Positions 4,608 through 15,405 are shown, counted from the stretch's first letter. The stretch is DNA of 64,000 bases from an uncultured Gammaproteobacteria bacterium (GCA_963707565.1 CAVPQN010000002.1:401756-465755), one strand, 5' to 3'. Numbers and translations: made by a program. Notes: generated from the sequence alone by a model not told the origin.

Positions 4608-5534
4608 TCAGCGGCCGGCGCCGGCGGCGGGGTTGCGCGGCATGGGTCGCAGGTAACCCGTAACCAGGGCCACGCCCAGCAGGATCACCAGCATGCCCAC
4701 CATTTGCGACCAGCCCAGCGTCTCATCGAGGATCCACCAGCCCAGCAATGCAGCGATGGCGGGGTTCACGTAGCCATAAGTGCCAACCACCACTGGCGTC
4801 GTATTGACCGTCAGGAAGGCGTAGGCGGAATAGGCCAGGCAGGAACTCATCAGGGTCAGCCACAGGAAGGCGCTGAGACCCGGCAGTGACCAGTGCATCG
4901 CCAGCGGCTCACCGCTGAGTGCCGCCATGGCCATCAGCCCGGCACCGCCCAGCAGCATCTGCAGGGCAGTGAACATGAGCGGCGTGTTGGCCGCGTTCGC
5001 CTGGCGGTAGTAGATGGTGGCCAGCGACCAGCCGAAGCAGCCAAGCAGGATCAGCAACTGCCAGCCGAGTCCTTCCAGGCGAAAACCGCCCCGTGGCAGC
5101 AGTACCAGGACGACACCGATCAGGCCGACCAGCAGGCCCAGGCGGGCAGGGCCCGACAAGGCGCTGGCGCGCCGACCCATTGTCCCCAGCCAGGCAATCC
5201 ACAACGCAGGCGTGGCATTGAGCAACGCTGCCGTATTGGACTGCACATACTGCATCGCCACCACGTTGCAGGCATTGCTGCCCATGATGGCGAGCCCGGC
5301 CATGGTCAGGACGTGGCGAACTTCGAGGCGCGTGAGCACAGGCGGCCCGCTTTTCCACCAGGCAAATGCCCCGAGTAGCACCCCGGCGCTCAGGAATCGC
5401 AGGCTCGCAGCGAACAGCGGCGGCTCCTCGCTGACCATGATCTTGGTCGCGAGGTAACTCGACCCCCACACCAGGTAAACGATCGCCAGTGCCAGCGATA
5501 CCTGCGCGCGACGCTGCGAATCGGCCTCGGTCAT
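4608..5534 (-). CDS. EamA/DMT-family transporter
   Basis: 308 aa with about 10 predicted TM helices in two repeated halves. N-terminal LVWGSSYLATK block. Confidence 0.75.
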   Translation of the reverse strand: MTEADSQRRAQVSLALAIVYLVWGSSYLATKIMVSEEPPLFAASLRFLSAGVLLGAFAWWKSGPPVLTRLEVRHVLTMAGLAIMGSNACNVVAMQYVQSNTAALLNATPALWIAWLGTMGRRASALSGPARLGLLVGLIGVVLVLLPRGGFRLEGLGWQLLILLGCFGWSLATIYYRQANAANTPLMFTALQMLLGGAGLMAMAALSGEPLAMHWSLPGLSAFLWLTLMSSCLAYSAYAFLTVNTTPVVVGTYGYVNPAIAALLGWWILDETLGWSQMVGMLVILLGVALVTGYLRPMPRNPAAGAGR

Positions 5535-5576: not shown

Positions 5577-7511
5577 TCAGGTCTTGGTGCTGCTGCGAGG
5601 CGTGGCCGTGCGGAAAAGCCACCAGCCCATGGCGGCAAGCGCCGCCAGTCCGGCCCAGCGACCCGGGCGCAGCGATTCTGCCACCGCCAGCACGTCGGCA
5701 TTCTCGGAGATCACGATGGGAATCGCGATCAGCACGCCGATGATGGCTTCACCCGCAATCAGGCCGGCAGAGAACAACAGCCCGTTCTGCTTCAGCGCCT
5801 CAAGATCGCCGCCCGGATTGCGCCGGCGGTGCCAGCGCGTCGCCAGCTCGGCAATCAAGCCGCCGGCGAAGATGGGCGTGGACAGTTCAAGCGGCAGGTA
5901 AATGCCGACTGCGACGGCGAGCACCGGCGCACGCCAGCTGGCACCAATGCGGCGCAGGCGTTCGTCAATGGCGATGACAATGGCACCAACGATGGCGCCC
6001 GCGCCGACCATGTTCCAGGGCAGGCCGGAGCCGAAGATGCCGCTGGCGACAGAGGCCATCAGCGTGGCTTGCGGTGCCGGCAGGGCAGTGACGCCCTCGC
6101 GTGCGGGTGTGCCGATGCCGTAGGCCTCCAGCAGCAGGTTGAGCACCGGCGCCATGATCGCGGCGCTGGCCAGGGCGCCGATACCCAGCATGACCTGCTG
6201 GCGCCAGGGCGTGGCGCCGACCAGTTGCCCGGCCTTGAGGTCCTGCAGGTTGTCGCCGGCAATCGCGGCTGAATTGCATATCACCGCGCCGATCATGATG
6301 GCAGCGACCGGGCCGACGGTGGAGCCGGCGCCGAGCATGCCCAGCAGGATCAGCGAGGCGAACAGGATGGTGGAAATGGTGATGCCTGATACCGGGTTGT
6401 TCGAGGAACCCACCAGGCCGGCCATGTAGCCGCTCACTGACGAGAATACGAATCCCGCCACCACCATGATCAGGGCCATGGTCAGTGCGACGCCAAAGCT
6501 TCCGACCACCATCAGGTACAGGGCAAACAACGGCACGACAAACAAGACGATGCCAATCAGGATCATGTTCATCGGCAGGTCGCGCTCGGTGTGCGCCACA
6601 TCCCTGGTGGAGGCGTTACGCAGGGCGAGGCCGCTGCGGATACCTGAGAACAGTGAATAGCGCAGTGTCCACAAGGACCACAGCCCGCCGATCAACATGG
6701 CGCCCACGCCGATGTAACGGATCTGCGCGCTCCAGATCATGTAGGCGGCATCTTCGGCGCTCACGCCCACCAGTTTCGCGGCCAGCGCCGGGTCGTGGTC
6801 GAACAGGAAGGTGTTGTAGATAGGTATGAACACCCACCAGGACAGCGCGCCACCAGAGAGCATCAGCACGCCGATGTTGAGCCCGACGATGTAACCCACA
6901 CCCAGCAGCGCCGGCGACAGGTTCAGGCCAAAGAATCCAATGGTGCGGTCACCGAAGAAGCGCGCCGCGGTGAAGGCCTCGGGCGAGAGCTTGAGTCCGG
7001 AGAGGATGAACTTGAATCCGGCGCCAGCCAGGGCAGCGAAGCCCAGCGCACGCAGTCCCTTGCCCGGGTTCTCGCCCACCTTGAGCACTTCTGCGGTGGC
7101 CACGCCCTCGGGAAACTGCAGCTTCTGCTCCAGGATCAGGGTGCGGCGCAGCGGCACCGAGAACAGCACGCCGAGCAGGCCGCCCAGGCCGGCAATGGCA
7201 AACACCCACCAGTACTGGAAGGTGGACCAATGGCCCATCAGCACCAGCGCGGGAATGGTGAAGATCGTGCCGGCCGCGATCGAGGAGCCCGCCGAGGCGC
7301 CAGTGGCGACGATGTTGTTTTCCAGGATATTGGAGCGTCCCAGCAGGCGCAGCACACCCATGGAGATGACCGCTGCGGGAATGGCGGTAGCCACAGTCAG
7401 GCCGGCGAACAGGCCAAGGTAGGCGTTGGCGGCAGCCAGCAGCACGGTCAGCGCCAGCGACAGGACGATGGCGCGCAGCGTCAGCTGCGGCGCGGAATCA
7501 GGCAGGCTCAT
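5577..7511 (-). CDS. OPT-family oligopeptide transporter
   Basis: 644-aa polytopic membrane protein. N-terminal LTLRAIVLSLALTVLLAAANAYLGLFAGLTVATAIPAAV is typical of bacterial OPT proteins. Lies immediately downstream of the M2 peptidase genes. Confidence 0.75.
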   Translation of the reverse strand: MSLPDSAPQLTLRAIVLSLALTVLLAAANAYLGLFAGLTVATAIPAAVISMGVLRLLGRSNILENNIVATGASAGSSIAAGTIFTIPALVLMGHWSTFQYWWVFAIAGLGGLLGVLFSVPLRRTLILEQKLQFPEGVATAEVLKVGENPGKGLRALGFAALAGAGFKFILSGLKLSPEAFTAARFFGDRTIGFFGLNLSPALLGVGYIVGLNIGVLMLSGGALSWWVFIPIYNTFLFDHDPALAAKLVGVSAEDAAYMIWSAQIRYIGVGAMLIGGLWSLWTLRYSLFSGIRSGLALRNASTRDVAHTERDLPMNMILIGIVLFVVPLFALYLMVVGSFGVALTMALIMVVAGFVFSSVSGYMAGLVGSSNNPVSGITISTILFASLILLGMLGAGSTVGPVAAIMIGAVICNSAAIAGDNLQDLKAGQLVGATPWRQQVMLGIGALASAAIMAPVLNLLLEAYGIGTPAREGVTALPAPQATLMASVASGIFGSGLPWNMVGAGAIVGAIVIAIDERLRRIGASWRAPVLAVAVGIYLPLELSTPIFAGGLIAELATRWHRRRNPGGDLEALKQNGLLFSAGLIAGEAIIGVLIAIPIVISENADVLAVAESLRPGRWAGLAALAAMGWWLFRTATPRSSTKT

Positions 7512-7527: not shown

Positions 7528-9346
7528 TTACCAGCCGCACTGGCGGTCGCGGTTCTGCTCGTCCAGCCAGCCCATCAGCGGCTGGAAGTACTCGATGAGG
7601 GCCGAGGCATCCATTTGACGGGTACCAGTCAGCTTCTCCAGCGCATCCTGCCATGGCTGGCTGGCGCCCAGCGCGAGCATCTCACGGAATCGCCGGCCCG
7701 CCTCTTTGTTGCCGTAGACCGAGCACTCATGCAGCGGGCCCTTGAAGCCTGCCGCATCACACAGCGCCTTGTGGAACTGGAACTGCAGCACAAAGGCAAG
7801 GAAGTAGCGTGTGTAGGGCGTATTGCCCGGCACGTGGTACTTGGCGCCGGGGTCGAAGTCCGCCTCAGTGCGGGCGATGGCGGGTGCAATGCCCTGGTAC
7901 TTGCGACGCAGTTCCCACCAGGCTTCGTTGTATTTCTCCGGCGGGATGGCGCCTGAAAATACGCCCCAGCGCCACTGGTCAATCAGCTTGCCGAAAGGCA
8001 GGAAGGCAATCTTCTCGGAGGCAACCTTCATCTGGCGATTGATCAGCGACTGTGGGCTGCTCTTCTGGCCAGCCGGCAGCAGGCCCTGACCGACCAAATA
8101 GTCCTCGGTCATCGACAGGTTGATGGTATCGCCCAGCGCCTCGTGGAAGCCGTCGTGCGCACCGGTGCGCAACAGGTAGGGCTTGTCCTGGTACATCAGG
8201 TAGTAATAGACGTGCCCAAGCTCGTGGTAGACGGTGTAGAGGTCTTCTTCGCTGACCTCGATACATTGCTTGATGCGGACGTCCTCGGGGTCGGCCATGT
8301 CCCAGGCGCTGGCGTAACAGACCACGTCGCGATCACGCGGCCGTGCAAACAGTGACTTCTGCCAGAACGAATCGGGCAAGCTGGAAAAGCCGAGGGACAG
8401 GTAAAACTCCTCGGCCGAGCGAACCATGCGCAGGGCGTCGAATCCCTGCTTCTTCAGCCCGGCGGTGACATCGAGAGCGGAGACACCCGGATACGGCTCC
8501 AGCAGGTCGAAGATATTGTTCCACTGCTGCGCCCACATGTTTCCAAACAGGTGGGCGGGGACGGGCTGGCCATCAGGGACCCGGTCCTTGCCATATTTCT
8601 TCTGCAGCACGCCGCGCGCATAGCAATGCATGCCGTCGTACAGCGGCTTCATCTGGTTCCACAGGCGCTCGGTCTCGGACTCAAACTCCGCCGCGCTCAT
8701 GTCATAGCCGGATCGCCACATCGCTCCGAGGTCGTCGAAGCCCAATTCGGTGGCCCCCTCGTTGGCCAGCTCAACGAAGCGCTGGTAGTCGTCGCGCATG
8801 GGCGCGCTGAGGGAGTGCCAGCCGGTCCAGGCGGCCAACTGCTCATCGTAGTCACGGCTCTCCACCAGCGTGCGCGACAGGTCCTCGAAGTTGCGGCAGC
8901 TTTCCGGCCCGGACGGACAGAAGCGCCCGGAGCTGTAGGCGGACTCCATGGCCGCCAGGATGCCGGCAAGCTCGGCGCGCTTGGCCGCATCAGCGGGTGC
9001 CGGTGCTGCGGACCCCTGTCAGCAGGCGGCCAAGGATGCGCGCGGATTCGGCGGACATGGCCTGGCCACTGTACTGGCGCGACGTGGCTACTGCGGCCGA
9101 GTGGTAGGCGAGATAACGCTCATTGGCCTGGGCCGCCAGCGCCTCCGTGTCACTGGTGATGAAGTTCTGCTGCACCCAGTTGGCGTGCTGGGATTCATAA
9201 CCAAATTTCTCTATCTCCGCATTGGCCCGCGCGGCGAATTGGTCGGCGGTTTCGGCAGGCGGTGACTTGCCACAGCCCACCAGGGCACCCAGTGCGACGA
9301 GGGTGCAAGCCAGAGTGCGTAGGCGCAGCGAGGTCGGGCTAGACAT
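7528..9346 (-). pseudogene. M2-family (ACE-like) zinc dipeptidyl carboxypeptidase lipoprotein, copy 1, interrupted by a 1-nt frameshift
   Basis: ORF 8990..9346 encodes the lipoprotein signal (LVGC lipobox) and the N-terminus. ORF 7528..8949 encodes the rest, with intact HELGH and HEALGD zinc motifs. The two frames join seamlessly at a C4/G4 run (9013..9016) when aligned to copies 2 and 3. Confidence 0.75.
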
Positions 9347-9366: not shown

Positions 9367-11175
9367 TTAATGGCAGCTGCGATCAGCATTGCGCTGCTGG
9401 AGCCAGGTCATGAGGGGTTGGTAATAGGCCAGCAGGGCATCGGCCTCAATGCGCGGATTTCCGGTCAGGGCCATCAGTAGTTCCGGGAGGGGCCTGCTAC
9501 CACCTTTCTGCATGGCCTCCTGAAGGCGCGCTCCCGCCGCGGCGTTGCCATAGATGGAGCATTCGTGCAGTGAACCGCGATGGCCGGCGCTCTTGCACAG
9601 GGCCTCATGCAGCTGGAACTGCAGGACGTAGGCCAGGAAATAATCCACATAGGGCGTGTTGCCGGCAACGTGGTACTTCGCACCCGGATCAAAATACGAC
9701 TCGCCGCGCGCTACTGGCGGGGCTACGCGCTGGTATTCGCGGCGCAGGTCCCACCAGGCCTCGTTGTATTTTTCCGCGGGAATGGCACCGGAGAATACGT
9801 CCCAGCGCCACTTGTCCACCACAATGCCGAAGGGCATGAATGCCACATGATCCATGGCCGAGCGCATCTGCCGGTTCACCAGCACCCGTGCCCGCTGCGA
9901 CAACGAGTCGCTGACCTTGGCCAGCCCGAGCCGCGCATAGTGCTGGTCAGTCAGCGACAGTCCGACCATGCCACCCATCGCGCGGCTCAGTACAAAGGAA
10001 GAGCCCTCACGAAACAGGTAGGGCTGGTCGCGGCGCTCCAGGTAGTAATGCAGGCCGGCCATGATTTCGTGGGCCGCAACCAGGCGATCCTCGCGCGGCT
10101 CATAGCAGGCGCTGAGGCGCAGGTCCTGGTCGCCATCCACGTGGTAGGAAGTGGTGGTGCACTTTGCCTCGCGCCCGGTGGGCCGCATGAACATCGACTT
10201 ATCCCAGAAGGAGGTGGGCATGGGTGCCAACCCCAGGGAAACGTAGAAGTCTTCTGCGACCTGCACCAGCCGACGGCCGTCGTAACCCTGCTCGATGAGT
10301 GCAGCAGTGACGTCGTGGTCGAAGATCCCCGGGTAAGGCAGCGTAACGTCATCGATCGCATTCCAGTTCTGGGCCCACATGTTGCCAAACAACTGGGCGG
10401 GCACCGGTTCCTTGTCTGCCACAAGCTTGCGGCCATAGACTTGCTGCAGCTCGCCGCCAACATAACAATGCATCGCCAAGTAAAGCGGCTCGATCTGGCC
10501 CCACAGTCGATCGACTTCGCGGCGCAGATCCTCGGGATCCATGTCATGGTTCGAGCGCCACAGCTCGCCAAGATCATCGAAGCCTGCATCCCTTGCGCCC
10601 TGGTTGGCCAGGGTAACGAAGCGCTGGTAGTCGCTGCGCATGGGTATGGCGAGGTCGTGCCAGTCAATCCAGGTGCGCTGCAGCCTGGCCGGATCTCGGC
10701 TGCTGCGCAGCTCGCGAGCCAGGTCGGAATAGTCGCGGCATGAACCATCAGGGGCGCAAGCTTTCGCCGTGTTGTAGGCGCCATCCATCTTGACCTGCAG
10801 CATCGCAAGTTCCACTGCCTGCCCGGGGTCTGCAGGCGGGGACGCGTCGAGGCCGATGGCGAGCAGGCGCAGTGCACGCGCGCTGTCCTCGGACATGGGT
10901 TGACCTTGCAGAGCGCGGGCCTGTCCCTGTGCTTCCCGCAGAAAGTCAGAGAAGGCCGTTTCGGCAGCAGATGAAGCTGCGGAATGGGCCTCCGTGACAT
11001 CGGTCGCCAAAGCAAATGTCGCCTCCATGCGCGCCCGGTTCAGCACCTCCAGCTGTTCATTAATTCCAGCGATGATTTCATCAGCGTCGGGGGGGGCGGG
11101 TTCACCGCAGCTGGCCAAGAGCGCGACAGCCGCGCAAACGAGAATGCAGCGTGCGTGAGTCTTCCAGGAAGTCAT
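9367..11175 (-). CDS. M2-family (ACE-like) lipoprotein, copy 2, degenerate zinc site
   Basis: 602 aa with lipobox LASC. Collinear with copies 1 and 3, sharing the C-terminal block FDPGAKYHVAGNTPYVDYFLAYVLQFQLHEALC. HEXXH is replaced by HEIMAGLH (10048..10071) and HEAxGD by SRAMGG. Confidence 0.85.
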   Translation of the reverse strand: MTSWKTHARCILVCAAVALLASCGEPAPPDADEIIAGINEQLEVLNRARMEATFALATDVTEAHSAASSAAETAFSDFLREAQGQARALQGQPMSEDSARALRLLAIGLDASPPADPGQAVELAMLQVKMDGAYNTAKACAPDGSCRDYSDLARELRSSRDPARLQRTWIDWHDLAIPMRSDYQRFVTLANQGARDAGFDDLGELWRSNHDMDPEDLRREVDRLWGQIEPLYLAMHCYVGGELQQVYGRKLVADKEPVPAQLFGNMWAQNWNAIDDVTLPYPGIFDHDVTAALIEQGYDGRRLVQVAEDFYVSLGLAPMPTSFWDKSMFMRPTGREAKCTTTSYHVDGDQDLRLSACYEPREDRLVAAHEIMAGLHYYLERRDQPYLFREGSSFVLSRAMGGMVGLSLTDQHYARLGLAKVSDSLSQRARVLVNRQMRSAMDHVAFMPFGIVVDKWRWDVFSGAIPAEKYNEAWWDLRREYQRVAPPVARGESYFDPGAKYHVAGNTPYVDYFLAYVLQFQLHEALCKSAGHRGSLHECSIYGNAAAGARLQEAMQKGGSRPLPELLMALTGNPRIEADALLAYYQPLMTWLQQRNADRSCH

Positions 11176-11187
11176 CTTGCCTCCGCG

Positions 11188-13038
11188 CTACCAGCCGCAG
11201 TCGCGCCCGGCATTCTTGGTGTCGAGCCAGATCTTGAGCGGGCGGAAGTAGTCAATGATGGCGCTGGCGTCGGGTTCGCGGGAACCGGTCAGGGCCTCAA
11301 GCGAATCCTGCCAGGGACGACTGGCGCCCAATTTCATCATTTCCGCCAGGCGCCGGCCGGCTTCCTTGTTGCCGGCGATGGAACACTCATGCAGCGGCCC
11401 GCTGTGGCCAGCAGCAGTGCACAGCGCCCGGTGAAACTGGAACTGCAGCACAAAGGACAAGAAGTAGTCGGTATAGGGCACGTTACCCGGAATGTGGTAC
11501 TTGGCACCTGGGTCAAAATCTGCCTCGGATCGCGCAACAGGCGCCACCATGCCCTGGTACTTACGCCTCAAATCCCACCAGGCCTGGTTATATTTCTCCG
11601 GCGGGATCTCTCCCGAGTAGACACTCCAGCGCCATTCATCCACCAGCTGCCCGAAGGGCAGGAAGGCAATTGTCTCGACAGCGAAGCGCATTTGGCGGTT
11701 GAGCACCATGCGTCCACGCATGCCCAGCGCGGCGTCGTTCTTGCCAAGGCCGGCGGCGGCAAGGTAGCCATCAGTGACCGACAACCTGGCCGTACCGCCC
11801 ACGGCATCGGTCAGCGCGGGCAGGCTGCGCTCACGGAAAAGCCAGGGTTGGTCACGGTAGCCGAGGAAGAAATACATGTGCCCGATCATCTGGTGCAGGG
11901 TATTGAAGTCTTGCTCCGTGGGTTCGGCGCACAGGTTCAGGCGCACGTCCATGTCGCCATCAACATGCGAAGAGGTGGCGTGGCACATCACTGCGCGGCC
12001 GGCCGGCCGCTCCAGCATGGAGTTCTGCCAGAAGGACTGCGGCAGCGGATCGAAACCCAGCGAGGTATAAAAGCTCTCGGCGGTACGGGTCATGCGCGCG
12101 GCGTCGTAGCCCTGCTCCAGCAGCGCGCCAGTGATGTCCTGGCTGACGATGCCGGGATAGGGCTCCAGCATGTCAATGGCGTTGTTCCACTGCTGCGCCC
12201 ACATGTTGCCGAACAAGTGGGCCGGGATGGGCTGCCCGTCGGGAACGCGGCGCGTGCCGTACTTTTCCTGCAACTCGCTGCGCGCATGGCAGTGCAGCGC
12301 CTGGTACAAAGGCTTGACCTGCTCCCAGAGCCCACGGGTTTGTTCACGAAACTCACCCGGCTCCATGTCATAGCGCGAGCGCCAGAGCTCGCCAAGGTCA
12401 GCAAACCCCAGTTCCTGGGCACCGGCGTTGCCGAGTTCGACAAAACGCCGGAAATCCTTGCGCAGTGGTCGCGCCTGGTCGTGCCAGCCGGCCCAGGCGG
12501 CCAGCTGCGCGTCGTAATCGCGGCTGTTCGCCAGGACGCCATCGAGCTGCTCGAGGTTCTGGCAGCTCTCGGGTCCAGCCGGACAATGCTTGCCGGTGGC
12601 ATAGGCGGAACTCATGCGCGCCAGCAGCGTGGCCAACTCTTCTCGTTTCGCCGGGTCAGAGGGCGCCGGCGCATCGCTGGACAGGCGCAACAATTGCAGT
12701 ACGCGCGCGCTTTCGGGCGACATGGGCAGGCCGGCGTACTGTCGTGCCTCGGCGCTGGCGCGCGAACCCAGCTCCAGGAAGCGCGCCTCGGCCTTTGCCG
12801 CGGCCACCTCATTTTCCGGTGACATGTTGGTTTCAAAGGCGAAATTGGCCGCATTGAAGGCCGCGCCGGTTTCCTCGAATTCCGCGCTGATACGCGCGAC
12901 GAATTCGTCCGCCGTTTCAGGGCGGCTATCGTCTCCCTTGCCGCAGCCGGCCAACAGCAGCGCAGCAAACACCGCCACCCAGGGCAGGGAGTTGTGAGGA
13001 TTCCTCAAGCCGCTCGCGCGGCGCTGGGTGCTTGTCAT
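11188..13038 (-). CDS. M2-family (ACE-like) lipoprotein, copy 3, degenerate zinc site
   Basis: 616 aa from the ATG at 13038 (MTSTQRR..., lipobox LAGC). The longer track ORF to 13437 would overlap the POT gene. HEXXH is replaced by HQMIGH (11878..11895) and HEAxGD by TDAVGG. Confidence 0.85.
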   Translation of the reverse strand: MTSTQRRASGLRNPHNSLPWVAVFAALLLAGCGKGDDSRPETADEFVARISAEFEETGAAFNAANFAFETNMSPENEVAAAKAEARFLELGSRASAEARQYAGLPMSPESARVLQLLRLSSDAPAPSDPAKREELATLLARMSSAYATGKHCPAGPESCQNLEQLDGVLANSRDYDAQLAAWAGWHDQARPLRKDFRRFVELGNAGAQELGFADLGELWRSRYDMEPGEFREQTRGLWEQVKPLYQALHCHARSELQEKYGTRRVPDGQPIPAHLFGNMWAQQWNNAIDMLEPYPGIVSQDITGALLEQGYDAARMTRTAESFYTSLGFDPLPQSFWQNSMLERPAGRAVMCHATSSHVDGDMDVRLNLCAEPTEQDFNTLHQMIGHMYFFLGYRDQPWLFRERSLPALTDAVGGTARLSVTDGYLAAAGLGKNDAALGMRGRMVLNRQMRFAVETIAFLPFGQLVDEWRWSVYSGEIPPEKYNQAWWDLRRKYQGMVAPVARSEADFDPGAKYHIPGNVPYTDYFLSFVLQFQFHRALCTAAGHSGPLHECSIAGNKEAGRRLAEMMKLGASRPWQDSLEALTGSREPDASAIIDYFRPLKIWLDTKNAGRDCGW

Positions 13039-13040
13039 TT

Positions 13041-14555
13041 TCAGGCCGAGGGCGTCGTGCGATGCGGCGTCAAATCCTTTTGTGGCCCCTCGGCGCCGTG
13101 CATCCATTGCACAATCCGGCCAGAAATCGCCCATAGCAGGATGGAGAAGAACAGCAACACCAGGGCGATGCCGGCGAAGATGCCCAGCAGTCCGGCGTGC
13201 TCGGGGCGCACGCCGGCGTCGGCGGCGATCTGCAGCATCCACGGGTACTCGCCCATGTTTTCCGAGAAGGCGCCGATGTAACCGGCCAGCGTATTGGCGA
13301 AGAAGTTGATCAGGAACCAGACTCCCATCATCAGCGAGCCCAGTCGCAGCGGCGCCAGCTTGGTGACCATCGACAGGCCGACCGGGCTGATGCACAACTC
13401 GCCCAGGGTGTGGAACAGGTAACCCAGCACCAACCACAACATGCCGGCCTTCATGTCGAGCGTGCGCTGCATCTCAAACACCGCAACGACCAGGAAGGCA
13501 AAGCCAACCGTGACCAGTAACAGGCCGATGTACATCTTCACCGGCGTGGGCGGGTTGGCGCCACGCTCACCGAGGCGACCCCACAACATGGACATCACTG
13601 GTGCCAGCAGCACGATGAACAGCGGGTTGAGTGACTGGAACCAGCCGGTCGGCACCGTGAAGGTGCCCACAGAGCGGTCGGTGTACTTGTCGGCAAACAG
13701 GTTCAGCAAGCCACCGGCTTGCTCAAAGGCGGCCCAGAACATCATCACGAATACGAAGATGACGAAGATCACCTTGAGGCGATCGGCCTCAATCTTGGTC
13801 AGCGGCTCCTTCTTGCCACCGGCAAGGCGATGCGAACGCTTGGCGGCGGGCTCAATGCCCACATCGCCGATATAGCGCTGGGCAAAGGCCAGCTGGATGA
13901 TGACTGACAAGGTCATGCCGATGCCGGCAGCGAAAAAGCCAACGCGCCAGCCGTAGGCCGGGTCCTCGCCCAGCGTGGAGCACACCAGCGGTGCCAGGAA
14001 GGCGCCGAGGTTGATGCCCATGTAGAAGATGGTGAAGGCGCCGTCGCGTCGCGCATCGCCGGCCGGGTACAGGTCGCCGACCATGGTCGAAATGTTTGGC
14101 TTGAAGAAGCCGTTGCCCAGGATCAGCAGGAACAAGCCCAGGTAGAAGCTGACTGCAGTTTCCGGAAAGGAAAGGCCCAGCGAACTCACCGAGACAGCGG
14201 CCGTGGTGCCCAGGCTGTCGAGCGGCGCGGCCAGGGCAAACTGGCCCAGGGCCATGAGGATGCCGCCGAGGACTACCGACTTGCGCTGGCCCAGGTAGTT
14301 ATCCGCCAGCCAGCCGCCGAACAGCGGCGTCAGGTACACCAGTCCCGTGTACCAGGCATACATCTTCAGCGCCTGCGTACTGTCCCAACCGAGCCCCGGA
14401 TTCACGGCGTTGGTGGCGGCGACGGCGTAGAGCACCAGCAGCGCACGCATGCCGTAGTAACTGAAGCGTTCCCACATCTCGGTGGTGAACAACAAAAACA
14501 GGCCGCGGGGATGCCCGAGGAAGGTGCCGGACGGAATGCGCAAGTCAGTGGTCAT
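13041..14555 (-). CDS. POT/PTR2-family di-/tripeptide:proton symporter
   Basis: PTR2 signature FTTEMWERFSYYGMRALL, and about 14 TM helices. Start at ATG 14555; a GTG at 14591 is also possible. Confidence 0.9.
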   Translation of the reverse strand: MTTDLRIPSGTFLGHPRGLFLLFTTEMWERFSYYGMRALLVLYAVAATNAVNPGLGWDSTQALKMYAWYTGLVYLTPLFGGWLADNYLGQRKSVVLGGILMALGQFALAAPLDSLGTTAAVSVSSLGLSFPETAVSFYLGLFLLILGNGFFKPNISTMVGDLYPAGDARRDGAFTIFYMGINLGAFLAPLVCSTLGEDPAYGWRVGFFAAGIGMTLSVIIQLAFAQRYIGDVGIEPAAKRSHRLAGGKKEPLTKIEADRLKVIFVIFVFVMMFWAAFEQAGGLLNLFADKYTDRSVGTFTVPTGWFQSLNPLFIVLLAPVMSMLWGRLGERGANPPTPVKMYIGLLLVTVGFAFLVVAVFEMQRTLDMKAGMLWLVLGYLFHTLGELCISPVGLSMVTKLAPLRLGSLMMGVWFLINFFANTLAGYIGAFSENMGEYPWMLQIAADAGVRPEHAGLLGIFAGIALVLLFFSILLWAISGRIVQWMHGAEGPQKDLTPHRTTPSA

Positions 14556-14643
14556 CAGGGATTTTCTTATGCTGCTTGGCGTGCGCCCCACGCCGGAGTC
14601 CGCCGAGTCTCGGTGATTTTGCGGTGCAACAGCAAGCGTCTTT

Positions 14644-15405
14644 CTACTCAGTCTCCACGGGTCGTCTTACCAGCACCCGTGCGAACAGGATGCCGATCTC
14701 GTAGAGCAGGTACATGGGCACGGCCATCATGGTCTGGGACACTGGGTCCGGCGGCGTGAGGAAGGCCGCGACGATGAATATTCCCAGCAGGATATAGCCG
14801 CGATTGCGGCGCAGCGTTTCGATCTTCACCAGTCCGGTACGCACCAGCAGCACGGTGGCAATCGGGATCTCGAAGGCCAGGCCAAAGGCAAAGAACAGCA
14901 GCACCACGAAATCGAGGTACTGGCTCATGTCGGTCATCATCTGCACACCGGCCCAGGCGGCGGCGGCGACAAAGAAGTTGAAGATCACCGGGAACACGAT
15001 GAAGTAGGCAAATGCTGCGCCGGCGTAGAACAGGATCACGCTGCTGGCGAACAGCGGCAGCGCAAAGCGGCGCTCATGCTTGTACAGGCCGGGCGCAACG
15101 AAGGACCAGACCTGGTAGAGGATGAAGGGCATGGCCAGGAAGATGGCCGCCAGCAGCGCCAGCTTGAACGGGGTCATGAAAGGCGCGACCACGCTGGTGG
15201 CGATGAGGCTGGTGCCGGCGGGCATCAGTTCACGCAGCGGCGCCGAGATCCATAGAAATAGCTCGCTGGCGAACCATAGGCAGGGGATGGCCATCACCCC
15301 GACCGCGATGACCATGCGCAGCAAGCGGTCGCGCAATTCCAGCAAGTGGGAGATCAGCGAGCCCTCGGCCAGCGTATTCCCGCCCTCGGGAGGGCTCTCG
15401 CTCAT
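14644..15405 (-). CDS. tatC: Twin-arginine translocase subunit TatC
   Basis: 253 aa with six TM helices. Conserved LISHLLELRDRLL N-terminal block. Follows tatA-tatB. Confidence 0.95.
   Translation of the reverse strand: MSESPPEGGNTLAEGSLISHLLELRDRLLRMVIAVGVMAIPCLWFASELFLWISAPLRELMPAGTSLIATSVVAPFMTPFKLALLAAIFLAMPFILYQVWSFVAPGLYKHERRFALPLFASSVILFYAGAAFAYFIVFPVIFNFFVAAAAWAGVQMMTDMSQYLDFVVLLFFAFGLAFEIPIATVLLVRTGLVKIETLRRNRGYILLGIFIVAAFLTPPDPVSQTMMAVPMYLLYEIGILFARVLVRRPVETE

What the first reader, a model, noticed from the sequence alone, without database searches (positions are those of the whole stretch)
9367..13038. Two of the three M2 paralogues have lost the zinc-binding and catalytic motifs (predicted pseudo-peptidases)
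Family M2 uses HEXXH plus a downstream Glu in HEAxGD. Copy 1 has HELGH (8212..8226) and HEALGD. Copy 2 has HEIMAGLH (10048..10071; the His spacing is broken) and LSRAMGG (Glu to Arg). Copy 3 has LHQMIGH (11878..11895; aligned from the right, the first His becomes Gln and the catalytic Glu becomes Met) and LTDAVGG (Glu to Asp). Both degenerate copies keep intact ORFs, lipoprotein signals and the conserved C-terminal substrate-binding blocks. This argues for retained non-catalytic roles, such as peptide binding or delivery to the adjacent transporters.
Basis: partly seen in the sequence, partly recalled or inferred. Interest (0 to 1): 0.6.

Follow-up and report, generated by a model that had tools for sequence, protein, structure and literature searches.

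The report
Two dead ACE-like lipoproteins in bacteria
A soil-type gammaproteobacterium has tripled the ACE-like (M2) peptidase gene of its peptide-uptake operon, and two of the copies have lost the zinc/catalytic site but are otherwise conserved, making them rare bacterial examples of an inactive "pseudo-peptidase" of this family.

Summary
Three tandem Peptidase_M2 lipoprotein genes lie on the minus strand between a POT and an OPT peptide transporter.

- **Copy 1** (7528-9346) keeps HELGH and HEALGD.
- **Copy 2** (9367-11175) has E/I/G/S/R/G at the six zinc and catalytic positions (tACE H383, E384, H387, H410, E411, D415).
- **Copy 3** (11188-13038) has Q/M/H/T/D/G there.

The four zinc-ligand and catalytic residues are kept in all 255 other bacterial homologues checked. 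All six positions are invariant in the 77 that were aligned.

The losses are local. Copy 3 lost 10 of 13 invariant columns in the two zinc helices, but only 2 of 70 elsewhere. The fold, disulfide cysteines, lipoboxes and carboxylate-docking residues are kept. dN/dS between copies 2 and 3 is about 0.3, and there is no sign of gene conversion.

Relatives carry a single M2 gene in the same POT-M2-OPT arrangement. Copies 2 and 3 have no orthologue among 5.8 billion proteins, so the duplication is specific to this lineage.

The frameshift in copy 1 is probably an assembly error, because essential valS carries the same kind of extra G.

A second, independent bacterial pseudo-M2 lineage turned up in another genus.

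The peptide-binding role is an inference. The scan had already noted this stretch, but no degenerate M2 on other DNA.

The parts
13041..14591 (-). POT/PTR2-family di/tripeptide transporter, first gene of the peptide module. Its stop lies 2 nt before the copy 3 start.
   Evidence: Pfam PF00854, E = 9e-69. Found upstream of the single M2 gene in all genus relatives whose loci were examined.
11188..13038 (-). M2 copy 3, a 616-aa lipoprotein (lipobox LLAGC) and predicted pseudo-peptidase.
   Evidence: PF01401, E = 4e-191, full length. Zinc-site states are Q/M/H/T/D/G. It keeps 71 of 83 columns that are invariant in orthologues. It is a singleton in the 5.8-billion-protein database, where the best other hit is 59% identical.
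11878..11898 (-). Copy 3's degenerate HExxH helix, LHQMIGH (H383Q, E384M, H387 kept).
11794..11814 (-). Copy 3's degenerate third-ligand motif, LTDAVGG (H410T, E411D, D415G).
9367..11175 (-). M2 copy 2, a 602-aa lipoprotein (lipobox LLASC) and predicted pseudo-peptidase. It is the fastest-evolving copy. A GGAGG ribosome-binding site lies 4 nt before its ATG.
   Evidence: PF01401, E = 8e-171. Zinc-site states are E/I/G/S/R/G. The AlphaFold2 model has pLDDT 91.2 and pTM 0.90. The best PDB matches are human ACE at TM 0.85-0.91. It is a singleton, with the best other hit 48% identical. The ribosome-binding site is seen.
10048..10071 (-). Copy 2's degenerate HExxH helix, HEIMAGLH. In the family register this reads H383E, E384I, H387G.
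   Evidence: No canonical motif appears in the other frames.
9970..9990 (-). Copy 2's degenerate third-ligand motif, LSRAMGG (H410S, E411R, D415G).
7528..9346 (-). M2 copy 1, the orthologue of the single M2 gene of relatives. It has intact HELGH (8212-8226) and HEALGD (8128-8145). The assembly splits it by one extra G in the run at 9013-9016.
   Evidence: It is 70-78% identical to the genus orthologues and keeps 82 of 83 invariant columns. The frame switch is seen. Dropping one G gives a 605-aa ORF that is colinear with copies 2 and 3.
5577..7511 (-). OPT-family oligopeptide transporter, last gene of the module. It starts 16 nt after the copy 1 stop.
   Evidence: Pfam PF03169, E = 1e-117. Found downstream of M2 in all genus relatives whose loci were examined.

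Best explanation
**What the genes are.** Copies 2 and 3 are catalytically dead paralogues of the operon's ACE-like dipeptidyl-carboxypeptidase. They arose by two tandem duplications in this lineage.

**Order of events.** The ancestral module is POT - M2 - OPT. The first duplicate lost its zinc site on the stem it shares with its later twin. Five identical derived states at otherwise invariant positions support this, including D415G and A356S. The shared R522D, at a near-invariant position, points the same way. The first duplicate then duplicated again.

**What has been kept.** Both products have since been maintained by purifying selection as lipid-anchored periplasmic proteins. They keep the complete ACE fold, the disulfide cysteines and the residues that dock a peptide's free C-terminus (Q281, K511, Y520, H513, Y523).

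**Most likely role (inferred).** They bind peptides without cutting them. They would work with active copy 1 and the two flanking secondary transporters, for example by capturing, holding or handing over peptides.

**Shown:** the loss of the catalytic machinery, the retained fold, the constraint, the lineage-specific origin and the operon context.

**Inferred:** that the genes are expressed, that the proteins bind peptides, and that there is any coupling to the transporters.
For: **Catalytic site lost.**
- The six zinc and catalytic positions are invariant in 77 aligned orthologues. A further 178 homologues all keep HExxH and the third-ligand Glu. Copy 2 has replaced 6 of 6 and copy 3 has replaced 5 of 6.
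- The losses are local. Of the invariant columns in the two zinc helices, copy 3 lost 10 of 13 and copy 2 lost 11 of 13. Elsewhere they lost 2 of 70 and 11 of 70.

**Still under constraint.**
- NG86 dN/dS between copies 2 and 3 is 0.30 (0.20-0.40). A three-point split of the NG86 distances gives about 0.35 for the copy 2 tip and about 0.25 for the copy 3 tip.
- In the zinc region, dN/dS along the copy 1 to copy 2 and copy 1 to copy 3 paths is 0.79 and 0.50. Among orthologues it is 0.10-0.14.
- In the conserved blocks, 34-56% of identical codons differ synonymously. The longest exact nucleotide match between copies is 14-26 nt.
- GC3 of 0.76-0.79 against GC2 of 0.44-0.47 shows the coding pattern is kept.

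**Fold kept.** Pfam matches are full length. The AlphaFold2 model of copy 2 has pLDDT 91 and matches ACE at TM 0.85-0.91. All the conserved cysteines are invariant among the three copies.

**Origin.**
- Genus relatives have one M2 gene in POT-M2-OPT synteny.
- Copies 2 and 3 form a clade with 99% support inside the genus clade.
- Forcing all three copies into one clade is not rejected and gives a slightly better likelihood.

**Operon.** The gaps between genes are 2-20 nt and no intergenic terminator was found.

**Precedent.** An independent bacterial pseudo-M2 lineage is conserved across three species with dN/dS of 0.22-0.29.
Against: - Neither copy has an orthologue anywhere. Constraint therefore cannot be tested between species, and a recent switch to decay cannot be excluded.
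- dS is saturated. NG86 gives 1.2-1.4, the ML estimates are unstable and YN00 failed. The dN/dS values are therefore rough.
- Both copies evolve 2.6 to 5.6 times faster than copy 1 on the tree. Relaxed constraint would also produce this.
- Keeping the five docking residues is no more than the background retention predicts (0.73^5 for copy 2 and 0.86^5 for copy 3).
- Copy 2 has also changed the substrate-strand residues H353, A354 and A356.
- There are no expression data, and no sequencing run was listed.
- The assembly contains indel errors.
Confidence: 0.55

Rival explanations
1. The two copies are redundant duplicates drifting towards loss. The catalytic site went first. The rest looks conserved only because decay is incomplete and constraint is merely relaxed.
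For: - The tips are very long, 1.33 for copy 2 and 0.42 for copy 3, against a median of 0.06.
- dN/dS is two to three times that of the orthologues.
- The copies occur in a single genome and have no orthologues.
- Copy 2 has lost 11 invariant columns outside the zinc helices.
Against: - dN/dS of 0.30 (upper bootstrap bound 0.40) is far below 1, although dS exceeds 1, so the copies are old.
- Both ORFs, of 602 and 616 codons, are open in an assembly that is otherwise prone to indels.
- Copy 3's losses outside the zinc helices are only 2 of 70.
- The lipoboxes, all the cysteines and a strong ribosome-binding site are kept.
- Keeping 3.7 kb of dead DNA this long in a 2.58-Mb genome is unlikely.
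Confidence: 0.2
2. The copies do not mainly bind peptides. They act through protein-protein contacts. They could be partners or regulators of active copy 1, or chaperones or accessory subunits of the POT or OPT transporters, much as ACE2 and collectrin serve amino-acid transporters in animals.
For: - All the genes sit in one tight operon with copy 1 and the two transporters.
- Most characterised pseudo-peptidases act by protein-protein interaction (PMC11266112).
- An animal precedent links an M2 family member to a transporter: ACE2 with B0AT1 (PMC3408045, title and abstract only).
Against: - Nothing here shows an interface.
- Relatives run the same module with a single active M2 gene, so no accessory protein is required.
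- The independent pseudo-M2 lineage in genus g4 does not sit next to transporters.
Confidence: 0.15
3. The copies are still enzymes. They would use an alternative metal site, such as His382, His387 and Asp411 in copy 3, or a new chemistry.
For: - Copy 3 keeps His387, has Asp at position 411 and has a His at position 382.
- Tyr523 and His513, which stabilise the transition state, are kept in both copies.
Against: - The general base Glu384 is Met in copy 3 and Ile in copy 2.
- Copy 2 has no His or Asp at any ligand position, and has Arg at position 411.
- Position 382 points away from position 383 on the helix. This follows from helix geometry, not from a measurement.
- Second-shell Asp415 and His410 are lost in both copies.
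- ACE3 and Drosophila Ance-2 to Ance-5 have similar changes and are regarded as inactive (PMC1925091, PMC8648576).
Confidence: 0.07
4. The pattern is an assembly or sequencing artefact, caused by chimeric joins or by indel-scrambled motifs.
For: The assembly does contain indel errors. Essential valS and several RND transporter genes are split.
Against: - An orthologue aligns to each copy in a single frame over the whole length, and no other frame encodes the motifs.
- 40-50% amino-acid divergence cannot arise from indels.
- The copies lie inside a 1.25-Mb contig and are more divergent than any orthologue in the genus.
Confidence: 0.03

Closest known systems
Mammalian ACE3 (a tandem duplicate next to ACE; HQMGH in mouse, rat, dog and cow)
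   Same: It is an M2 paralogue made by tandem duplication. It has lost the catalytic Glu, as copy 3 has (HQM..H against HQMGH), and is kept as an intact gene (PMC1925091).
   Different: It is an animal membrane protein that keeps all its zinc ligands. The copies here have also lost ligands and second-shell residues, are bacterial lipoproteins, and sit in a transporter operon.
Drosophila Ance-2, -3, -4 and -5, and C. elegans ACN-1
   Same: They are M2 homologues with widely degenerate HExxH...E motifs that are predicted to be inactive and whose roles are still unknown (PMC8648576; PMC1925091).
   Different: They are eukaryotic secreted or membrane proteins with no operon or transporter context, and they originated independently.
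Active bacterial M2 peptidyl-dipeptidases (XcACE of Xanthomonas; the 'peptidyl-dipeptidase A / M2 family metallopeptidase' annotations)
   Same: Same family, length, fold and lipoprotein signal. Copy 1 and all 255 relatives examined are of this type.
   Different: Copies 2 and 3 lack the zinc and catalytic residues that define the active enzymes.
Independent bacterial pseudo-M2 lineage found here (genus g4 of the same order: L107, L108 and L109; P0183 and P0184)
   Same: It is a bacterial M2 homologue without HExxH or HEAxGD. It sits beside a canonical M2 in the same genome and has NG86 dN/dS of 0.22-0.29. Databases annotate it as an active peptidase.
   Different: It is only about 30% identical to copy 2 and originated separately. 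It has also lost K511 and H513. It has a plain signal peptide, stands alone among unrelated genes, and is conserved across at least three species.
ACE2 and collectrin as partners of the amino-acid transporter B0AT1
   Same: A member of the M2 family is functionally tied to a nutrient transporter (PMC3408045, title and abstract only).
   Different: Collectrin lacks the peptidase domain altogether. The link here is gene order only, and no interaction has been shown.

Membership tests
Peptidase family M2 (Pfam PF01401), homology | Full-length match to the family profile above the curated cut-off | tested here: met
   Copy 2 scores 570 bits (profile positions 6-574 of 581). Copy 3 scores 637 bits (5-581). 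Copy 1's C-terminal part scores 689 bits. The cut-off is 23 bits.
Peptidase family M2, homology | ACE-type all-helical two-lobe fold | tested here: met
   The copy 2 model has pLDDT 91.2 and pTM 0.90. Foldseek matches human ACE at TM 0.85-0.91 with rmsd 2.1-2.7 A over about 575 columns. Copy 3 was not modelled, but it is closer to the family than copy 2.
Active M2 peptidase (gluzincin) | HExxH: two His zinc ligands plus the general-base Glu | tested here: not met
   Copy 2 has E, I and G at H383, E384 and H387. Copy 3 has Q, M and H. Copy 1 has HELGH. These positions are invariant in all 77 aligned orthologues.
Active M2 peptidase (gluzincin) | Third zinc ligand Glu in HEAxGD, with the helper Asp | tested here: not met
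   E411 is R in copy 2 and D in copy 3. D415 is G in both. H410 is S and T.
Active M2 peptidase | Residues that dock the C-terminal carboxylate and stabilise the transition state (Q281, K511, H513, Y520, Y523) | tested here: met
   All five are kept in all three copies. The residue roles come from published tACE structures and were not tested here.
Pseudo-peptidase (pseudoenzyme) | A homologue of an active family that lacks catalytic residues but is kept under purifying selection | tested here: met
   NG86 dN/dS between copies 2 and 3 is 0.30 (0.20-0.40). The losses are confined to the zinc helices. Caveat: dS is saturated and there are no orthologues.
Pseudo-peptidase (pseudoenzyme) | Experimental lack of activity, and expression of the protein | not testable with these tools
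   No sequencing run was listed for this DNA.
Bacterial lipoprotein | Signal peptide ending in a lipobox [LVI][ASTVI][GAS]C | tested here: met
   The lipoboxes are LLASC in copy 2, LLAGC in copy 3 and LVGC in copy 1. 151 of 180 family members in hand also have a lipobox-like motif. This is a pattern match only.

The most novel reading that the evidence does not exclude
The two dead M2 lipoproteins are peptide receptors recruited from a peptidase. They would capture peptides with a free C-terminus in the periplasm and hand them to the secondary transporters POT and OPT, or ration them to active copy 1. This would be an accessory binding protein of a new origin for transporter families that normally work without one.
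Probability: 0.12. Interest if true: 0.7.

Novelty: new variant of a known kind. Interest (0 to 1): 0.4.

Why it matters
Inactive M2 (ACE-family) homologues are known in animals: ACE3, fly Ance-2 to Ance-5 and worm ACN-1. Their roles remain open. I found no description of bacterial ones, and the 2024 review of metallopeptidase pseudoenzymes does not mention the family.

This locus is a compact case. One active and two dead paralogues lie in a single operon with two peptide transporters. That gives a simple bacterial setting to ask what an ACE fold does once it can no longer cut.

There is also a practical point. These proteins, and the second lineage found in passing, are annotated as active 'peptidyl-dipeptidase A / M2 metallopeptidase'. 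Peptidase inventories built from such labels overcount.

The reach is limited. The pair is known from one metagenome-type assembly, and no function has been shown.

Tried and rejected
This is impossible. Searches of 5.8 billion proteins and of one genome per species returned no relative of copy 2 above 48% identity, or of copy 3 above 59%.
- **Raw reads to settle the copy 1 frameshift.** No run was listed in two searches.
- **Better dN/dS estimators.** YN00 failed with domain errors. Pairwise ML gave unstable dS values from 0.2 to 37. Only NG86 with a bootstrap was used, and it is flagged as saturated.
- **An ORF-junction survey for frameshifts across the genome**. It did not separate ordinary neighbouring genes from broken ones, so I dropped it. 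Checks of named housekeeping and RND genes replaced it.
- **Gene conversion as the cause of the conserved C-terminal blocks.** Rejected.
- **Indel-scrambled motifs.** Rejected.
- **Sigma-70 promoter scan.** It found nothing. The terminator-like hits lie inside genes and are close to the shuffled expectation.
- **Copies 2 and 3 as members of an older pseudo-M2 lineage.** Rejected. They nest with copy 1 inside the genus clade. The other bacterial pseudo-M2 is only about 30% identical.
Full report
**Anatomy.** Five genes are packed on the minus strand with gaps of 2-20 nt:
- a POT/PTR2 transporter (13041-14591);
- M2 copy 3 (11188-13038);
- M2 copy 2 (9367-11175);
- M2 copy 1 (7528-9346);
- an OPT transporter (5577-7511).

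tatC lies upstream and an EamA transporter downstream. Pfam assigns all three middle genes to Peptidase_M2 over the whole profile, with E-values of 1e-171 to 1e-207, and confirms the two transporters. No sigma-70-like promoter was found, and no convincing terminator lies between the genes. Copy 2 has a GGAGG ribosome-binding site. Each M2 protein begins with a signal peptide ending in a lipobox, as do 151 of 180 family members in hand.

**The observation.** I aligned the three copies with 77 distinct bacterial M2 proteins taken from 94 related loci. Positions below use testis-ACE numbering, and their roles come from published ACE structures.

| Position | 77 orthologues | Copy 1 | Copy 2 | Copy 3 |
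|---|---|---|---|---|
| H383 | invariant | H | E | Q |
| E384 | invariant | E | I | M |
| H387 | invariant | H | G | H |
| H410 | invariant | H | S | T |
| E411 | invariant | E | R | D |
| D415 | invariant | D | G | G |

A further 178 homologues from a 5.8-billion-protein database all keep HExxH and the third-ligand Glu. The 'HE' in copy 2's HEIMAGLH sits one residue before the family register, so it is a look-alike and not a stretched motif. No alternative frame encodes a canonical motif, and an orthologue aligns to each copy in a single frame over its whole length. The assembly's indel errors therefore do not explain the loss.

**Focused loss and general conservation.** Of 83 columns invariant in the 77 orthologues, copy 1 keeps 82, copy 3 keeps 71 and copy 2 keeps 61.
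- Copy 3's twelve losses include ten inside the two zinc helices (residues 264-296 of the copy 1 C-terminal part). That is 10 of 13 there against 2 of 70 elsewhere, Fisher p = 7e-9.
- For copy 2 the figures are 11 of 13 against 11 of 70, p = 2.5e-6.
- The region was chosen after I had seen the data. With only the six positions defined beforehand, p is about 2e-4.

Q281, K511, H513, Y520 and Y523 are kept in all three copies, and every conserved cysteine is kept. R522, the chloride II site in ACE, is Asp in both dead copies. Copy 2 has also changed the substrate-strand residues H353, A354 and A356, while copy 3 keeps the first two. An AlphaFold2 model of copy 2, the more divergent copy, has pLDDT 91.2 and pTM 0.90. 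It matches human ACE structures at TM 0.85-0.91.

**Origin.** Of the 24 other genomes of the genus searched, 19 have a match, and each has only one M2 gene. The apparent doubles are single genes split by frame breaks. One of the 24, G011, is unpublished. In all genus relatives whose loci were examined, the single gene lies between the same POT and OPT genes.

Copy 1 is 70-78% identical to those orthologues. Copies 2 and 3 are only 43-48% and 55-63% identical. In a maximum-likelihood tree, copies 2 and 3 form a clade with 99% support on a stem of 0.35. Their tips are 1.33 and 0.42 long, all inside the genus clade, and copy 1's tip is 0.26. Forcing all three copies into one clade is not rejected and gives a log-likelihood 3.5 units higher (p-AU 0.60).

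The simplest history is two tandem duplications in this lineage. The active site was lost on the shared stem, because the two copies share five identical derived states at otherwise invariant positions: A356S, A286S, F290L, D415G, and Gly where orthologues have Asp. The shared R522D, at a near-invariant position, points the same way. Neither copy has an orthologue in any database searched. Copy 1, POT and OPT also have no relative closer than about 78-88%. The lineage is simply poorly sampled.

**Selection.** dS is saturated, so the numbers are rough.
- NG86 dN/dS between copies 2 and 3 is 0.30, with a bootstrap range of 0.20-0.40. This path lies entirely after the loss of the site.
- Among orthologues the value is 0.11-0.13.
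- A three-point split of the NG86 distances gives about 0.35 for the copy 2 tip and about 0.25 for the copy 3 tip.
- In the zinc region, the copy 1 to copy 2 and copy 1 to copy 3 paths give 0.79 and 0.50, against 0.10-0.14 in orthologues. Constraint was released there specifically.
- The conserved C-terminal blocks are not products of gene conversion. Between 34% and 56% of identical-residue codons differ synonymously, and the longest exact nucleotide match between copies is 14-26 nt.
- Codon-position GC remains that of a coding gene.

Together these results indicate proteins kept for something other than catalysis. They cannot exclude a recent slide into decay, especially for copy 2.

**The frameshift in copy 1.** The only intact-site copy changes frame at a run of four G (coding strand) at 9013-9016. 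Removing one G gives a 605-residue ORF that is colinear with the other copies. The same assembly splits the single, essential valS gene by an extra G in a short G run. Reading through that break restores the canonical ValS sequence. Several RND transporter genes are also split, although most long housekeeping genes are intact. Copy 1 keeps 82 of 83 invariant columns. I therefore read the break as an assembly error, with a probability of about 0.75. Reads could not be obtained.

**Function.** The ancestral module reads as a peptide-scavenging unit. A lipid-anchored dipeptidyl-carboxypeptidase releases dipeptides, POT takes them up, and OPT takes longer peptides. This follows from the family roles and was not tested. 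For the dead copies, the best-supported reading is non-hydrolytic peptide binding within this module. Acting as partner proteins of copy 1 or of the transporters is the main alternative. Both readings are inference.

**Comparison and novelty.** Inactive M2 homologues are established in animals. ACE3 has HQMGH, and Drosophila Ance-2 to Ance-5 and C. elegans ACN-1 are also predicted inactive (PMC1925091, PMC8648576). A 2024 review of metallopeptidase pseudoenzymes does not mention the family (PMC11266112). My literature searches found no bacterial case.

While checking relatives I found a second, independent bacterial lineage in another genus of the same order.
- It is about 30% identical to copy 2.
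- It has HRAIA-type and DYAHAQ-type replacements at the two motifs.
- It is present in all three genomes of that genus searched, beside a canonical M2.
- It has NG86 dN/dS of 0.22-0.29.
- Its closest database relative, P0184 (54% identical), has 23 close database relatives (its 90%-identity cluster), labelled as active peptidases.

Bacterial pseudo-M2 proteins are thus recurrent but undescribed. The present pair is a new variant of a known kind, not a new kind. Earlier notes of this scan on other genomes all describe intact M2 motifs.

Noticed in passing
L107:1501-3285 (G027:C128:11814-13598), L108, L109; P0183, P0184: An independent bacterial pseudo-M2 lineage in another genus of the same order. 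HExxH is replaced by HR(A/T)IA, HEAxGD by D(Y/D/A)AHAQ, and GAKYH is lost. It is 64-67% identical across three species, has NG86 dN/dS of 0.22-0.29, and each genome also holds a canonical M2. It stands alone among unrelated genes. The 90%-identity cluster of its closest database relative, P0184 (54% identical), has 23 members, and those that carry a name are annotated as active 'peptidyl-dipeptidase A / M2 family metallopeptidase'.
   Followed up: partly
window 9013-9016 (copy 1); G000:C1:1279189-1281949 (valS): Copy 1 is split by one extra G in a run of four. The essential single-copy valS gene of the same assembly is split by an extra G in GGGCAAG, and reading through restores the canonical ValS sequence. 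The assembly therefore carries short-G-run insertion errors.
   Followed up: yes
G000:C2:586004-588953; G000:C1:500243-506464: Several RND (ACR_tran) transporter genes are broken into pieces in different frames. One cluster on C1 has at least four breaks. These may be further assembly indels or one real pseudogene.
   Followed up: no
window 11089-11096: A run of eight C on the coding strand lies just after the lipobox of copy 2 and reads in frame. This is noteworthy in an assembly that gets shorter G runs wrong. Phase variation cannot be judged without reads.
   Followed up: partly
window 10984-12822 (+): A 612-codon open frame runs antisense to copy 3. This is the usual by-product of high GC3 on the coding strand, not a gene. 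It also shows that ORF length alone is weak evidence in this genome.
   Followed up: partly
window 8302-8319: Copy 1 has Tyr where ACE has His353 (CYASAW). Nine of the 77 orthologues share this, so it is a tolerated variant of the active enzyme.
   Followed up: yes
L104 (G001:C5:562000-565500); L105 (G002:C11:351800-355000): In two other genomes of the genus, the single M2 gene is also split into two frames, as are some loci from metagenome bins (L063, L067, L069, L075). Frame breaks in this gene are common in such assemblies.
   Followed up: no
window 14644-15405 and 4608-5534: tatC lies directly upstream of the POT gene, and an EamA-family transporter lies downstream of OPT. Both neighbours are conserved in the genus relatives.
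   Followed up: partly
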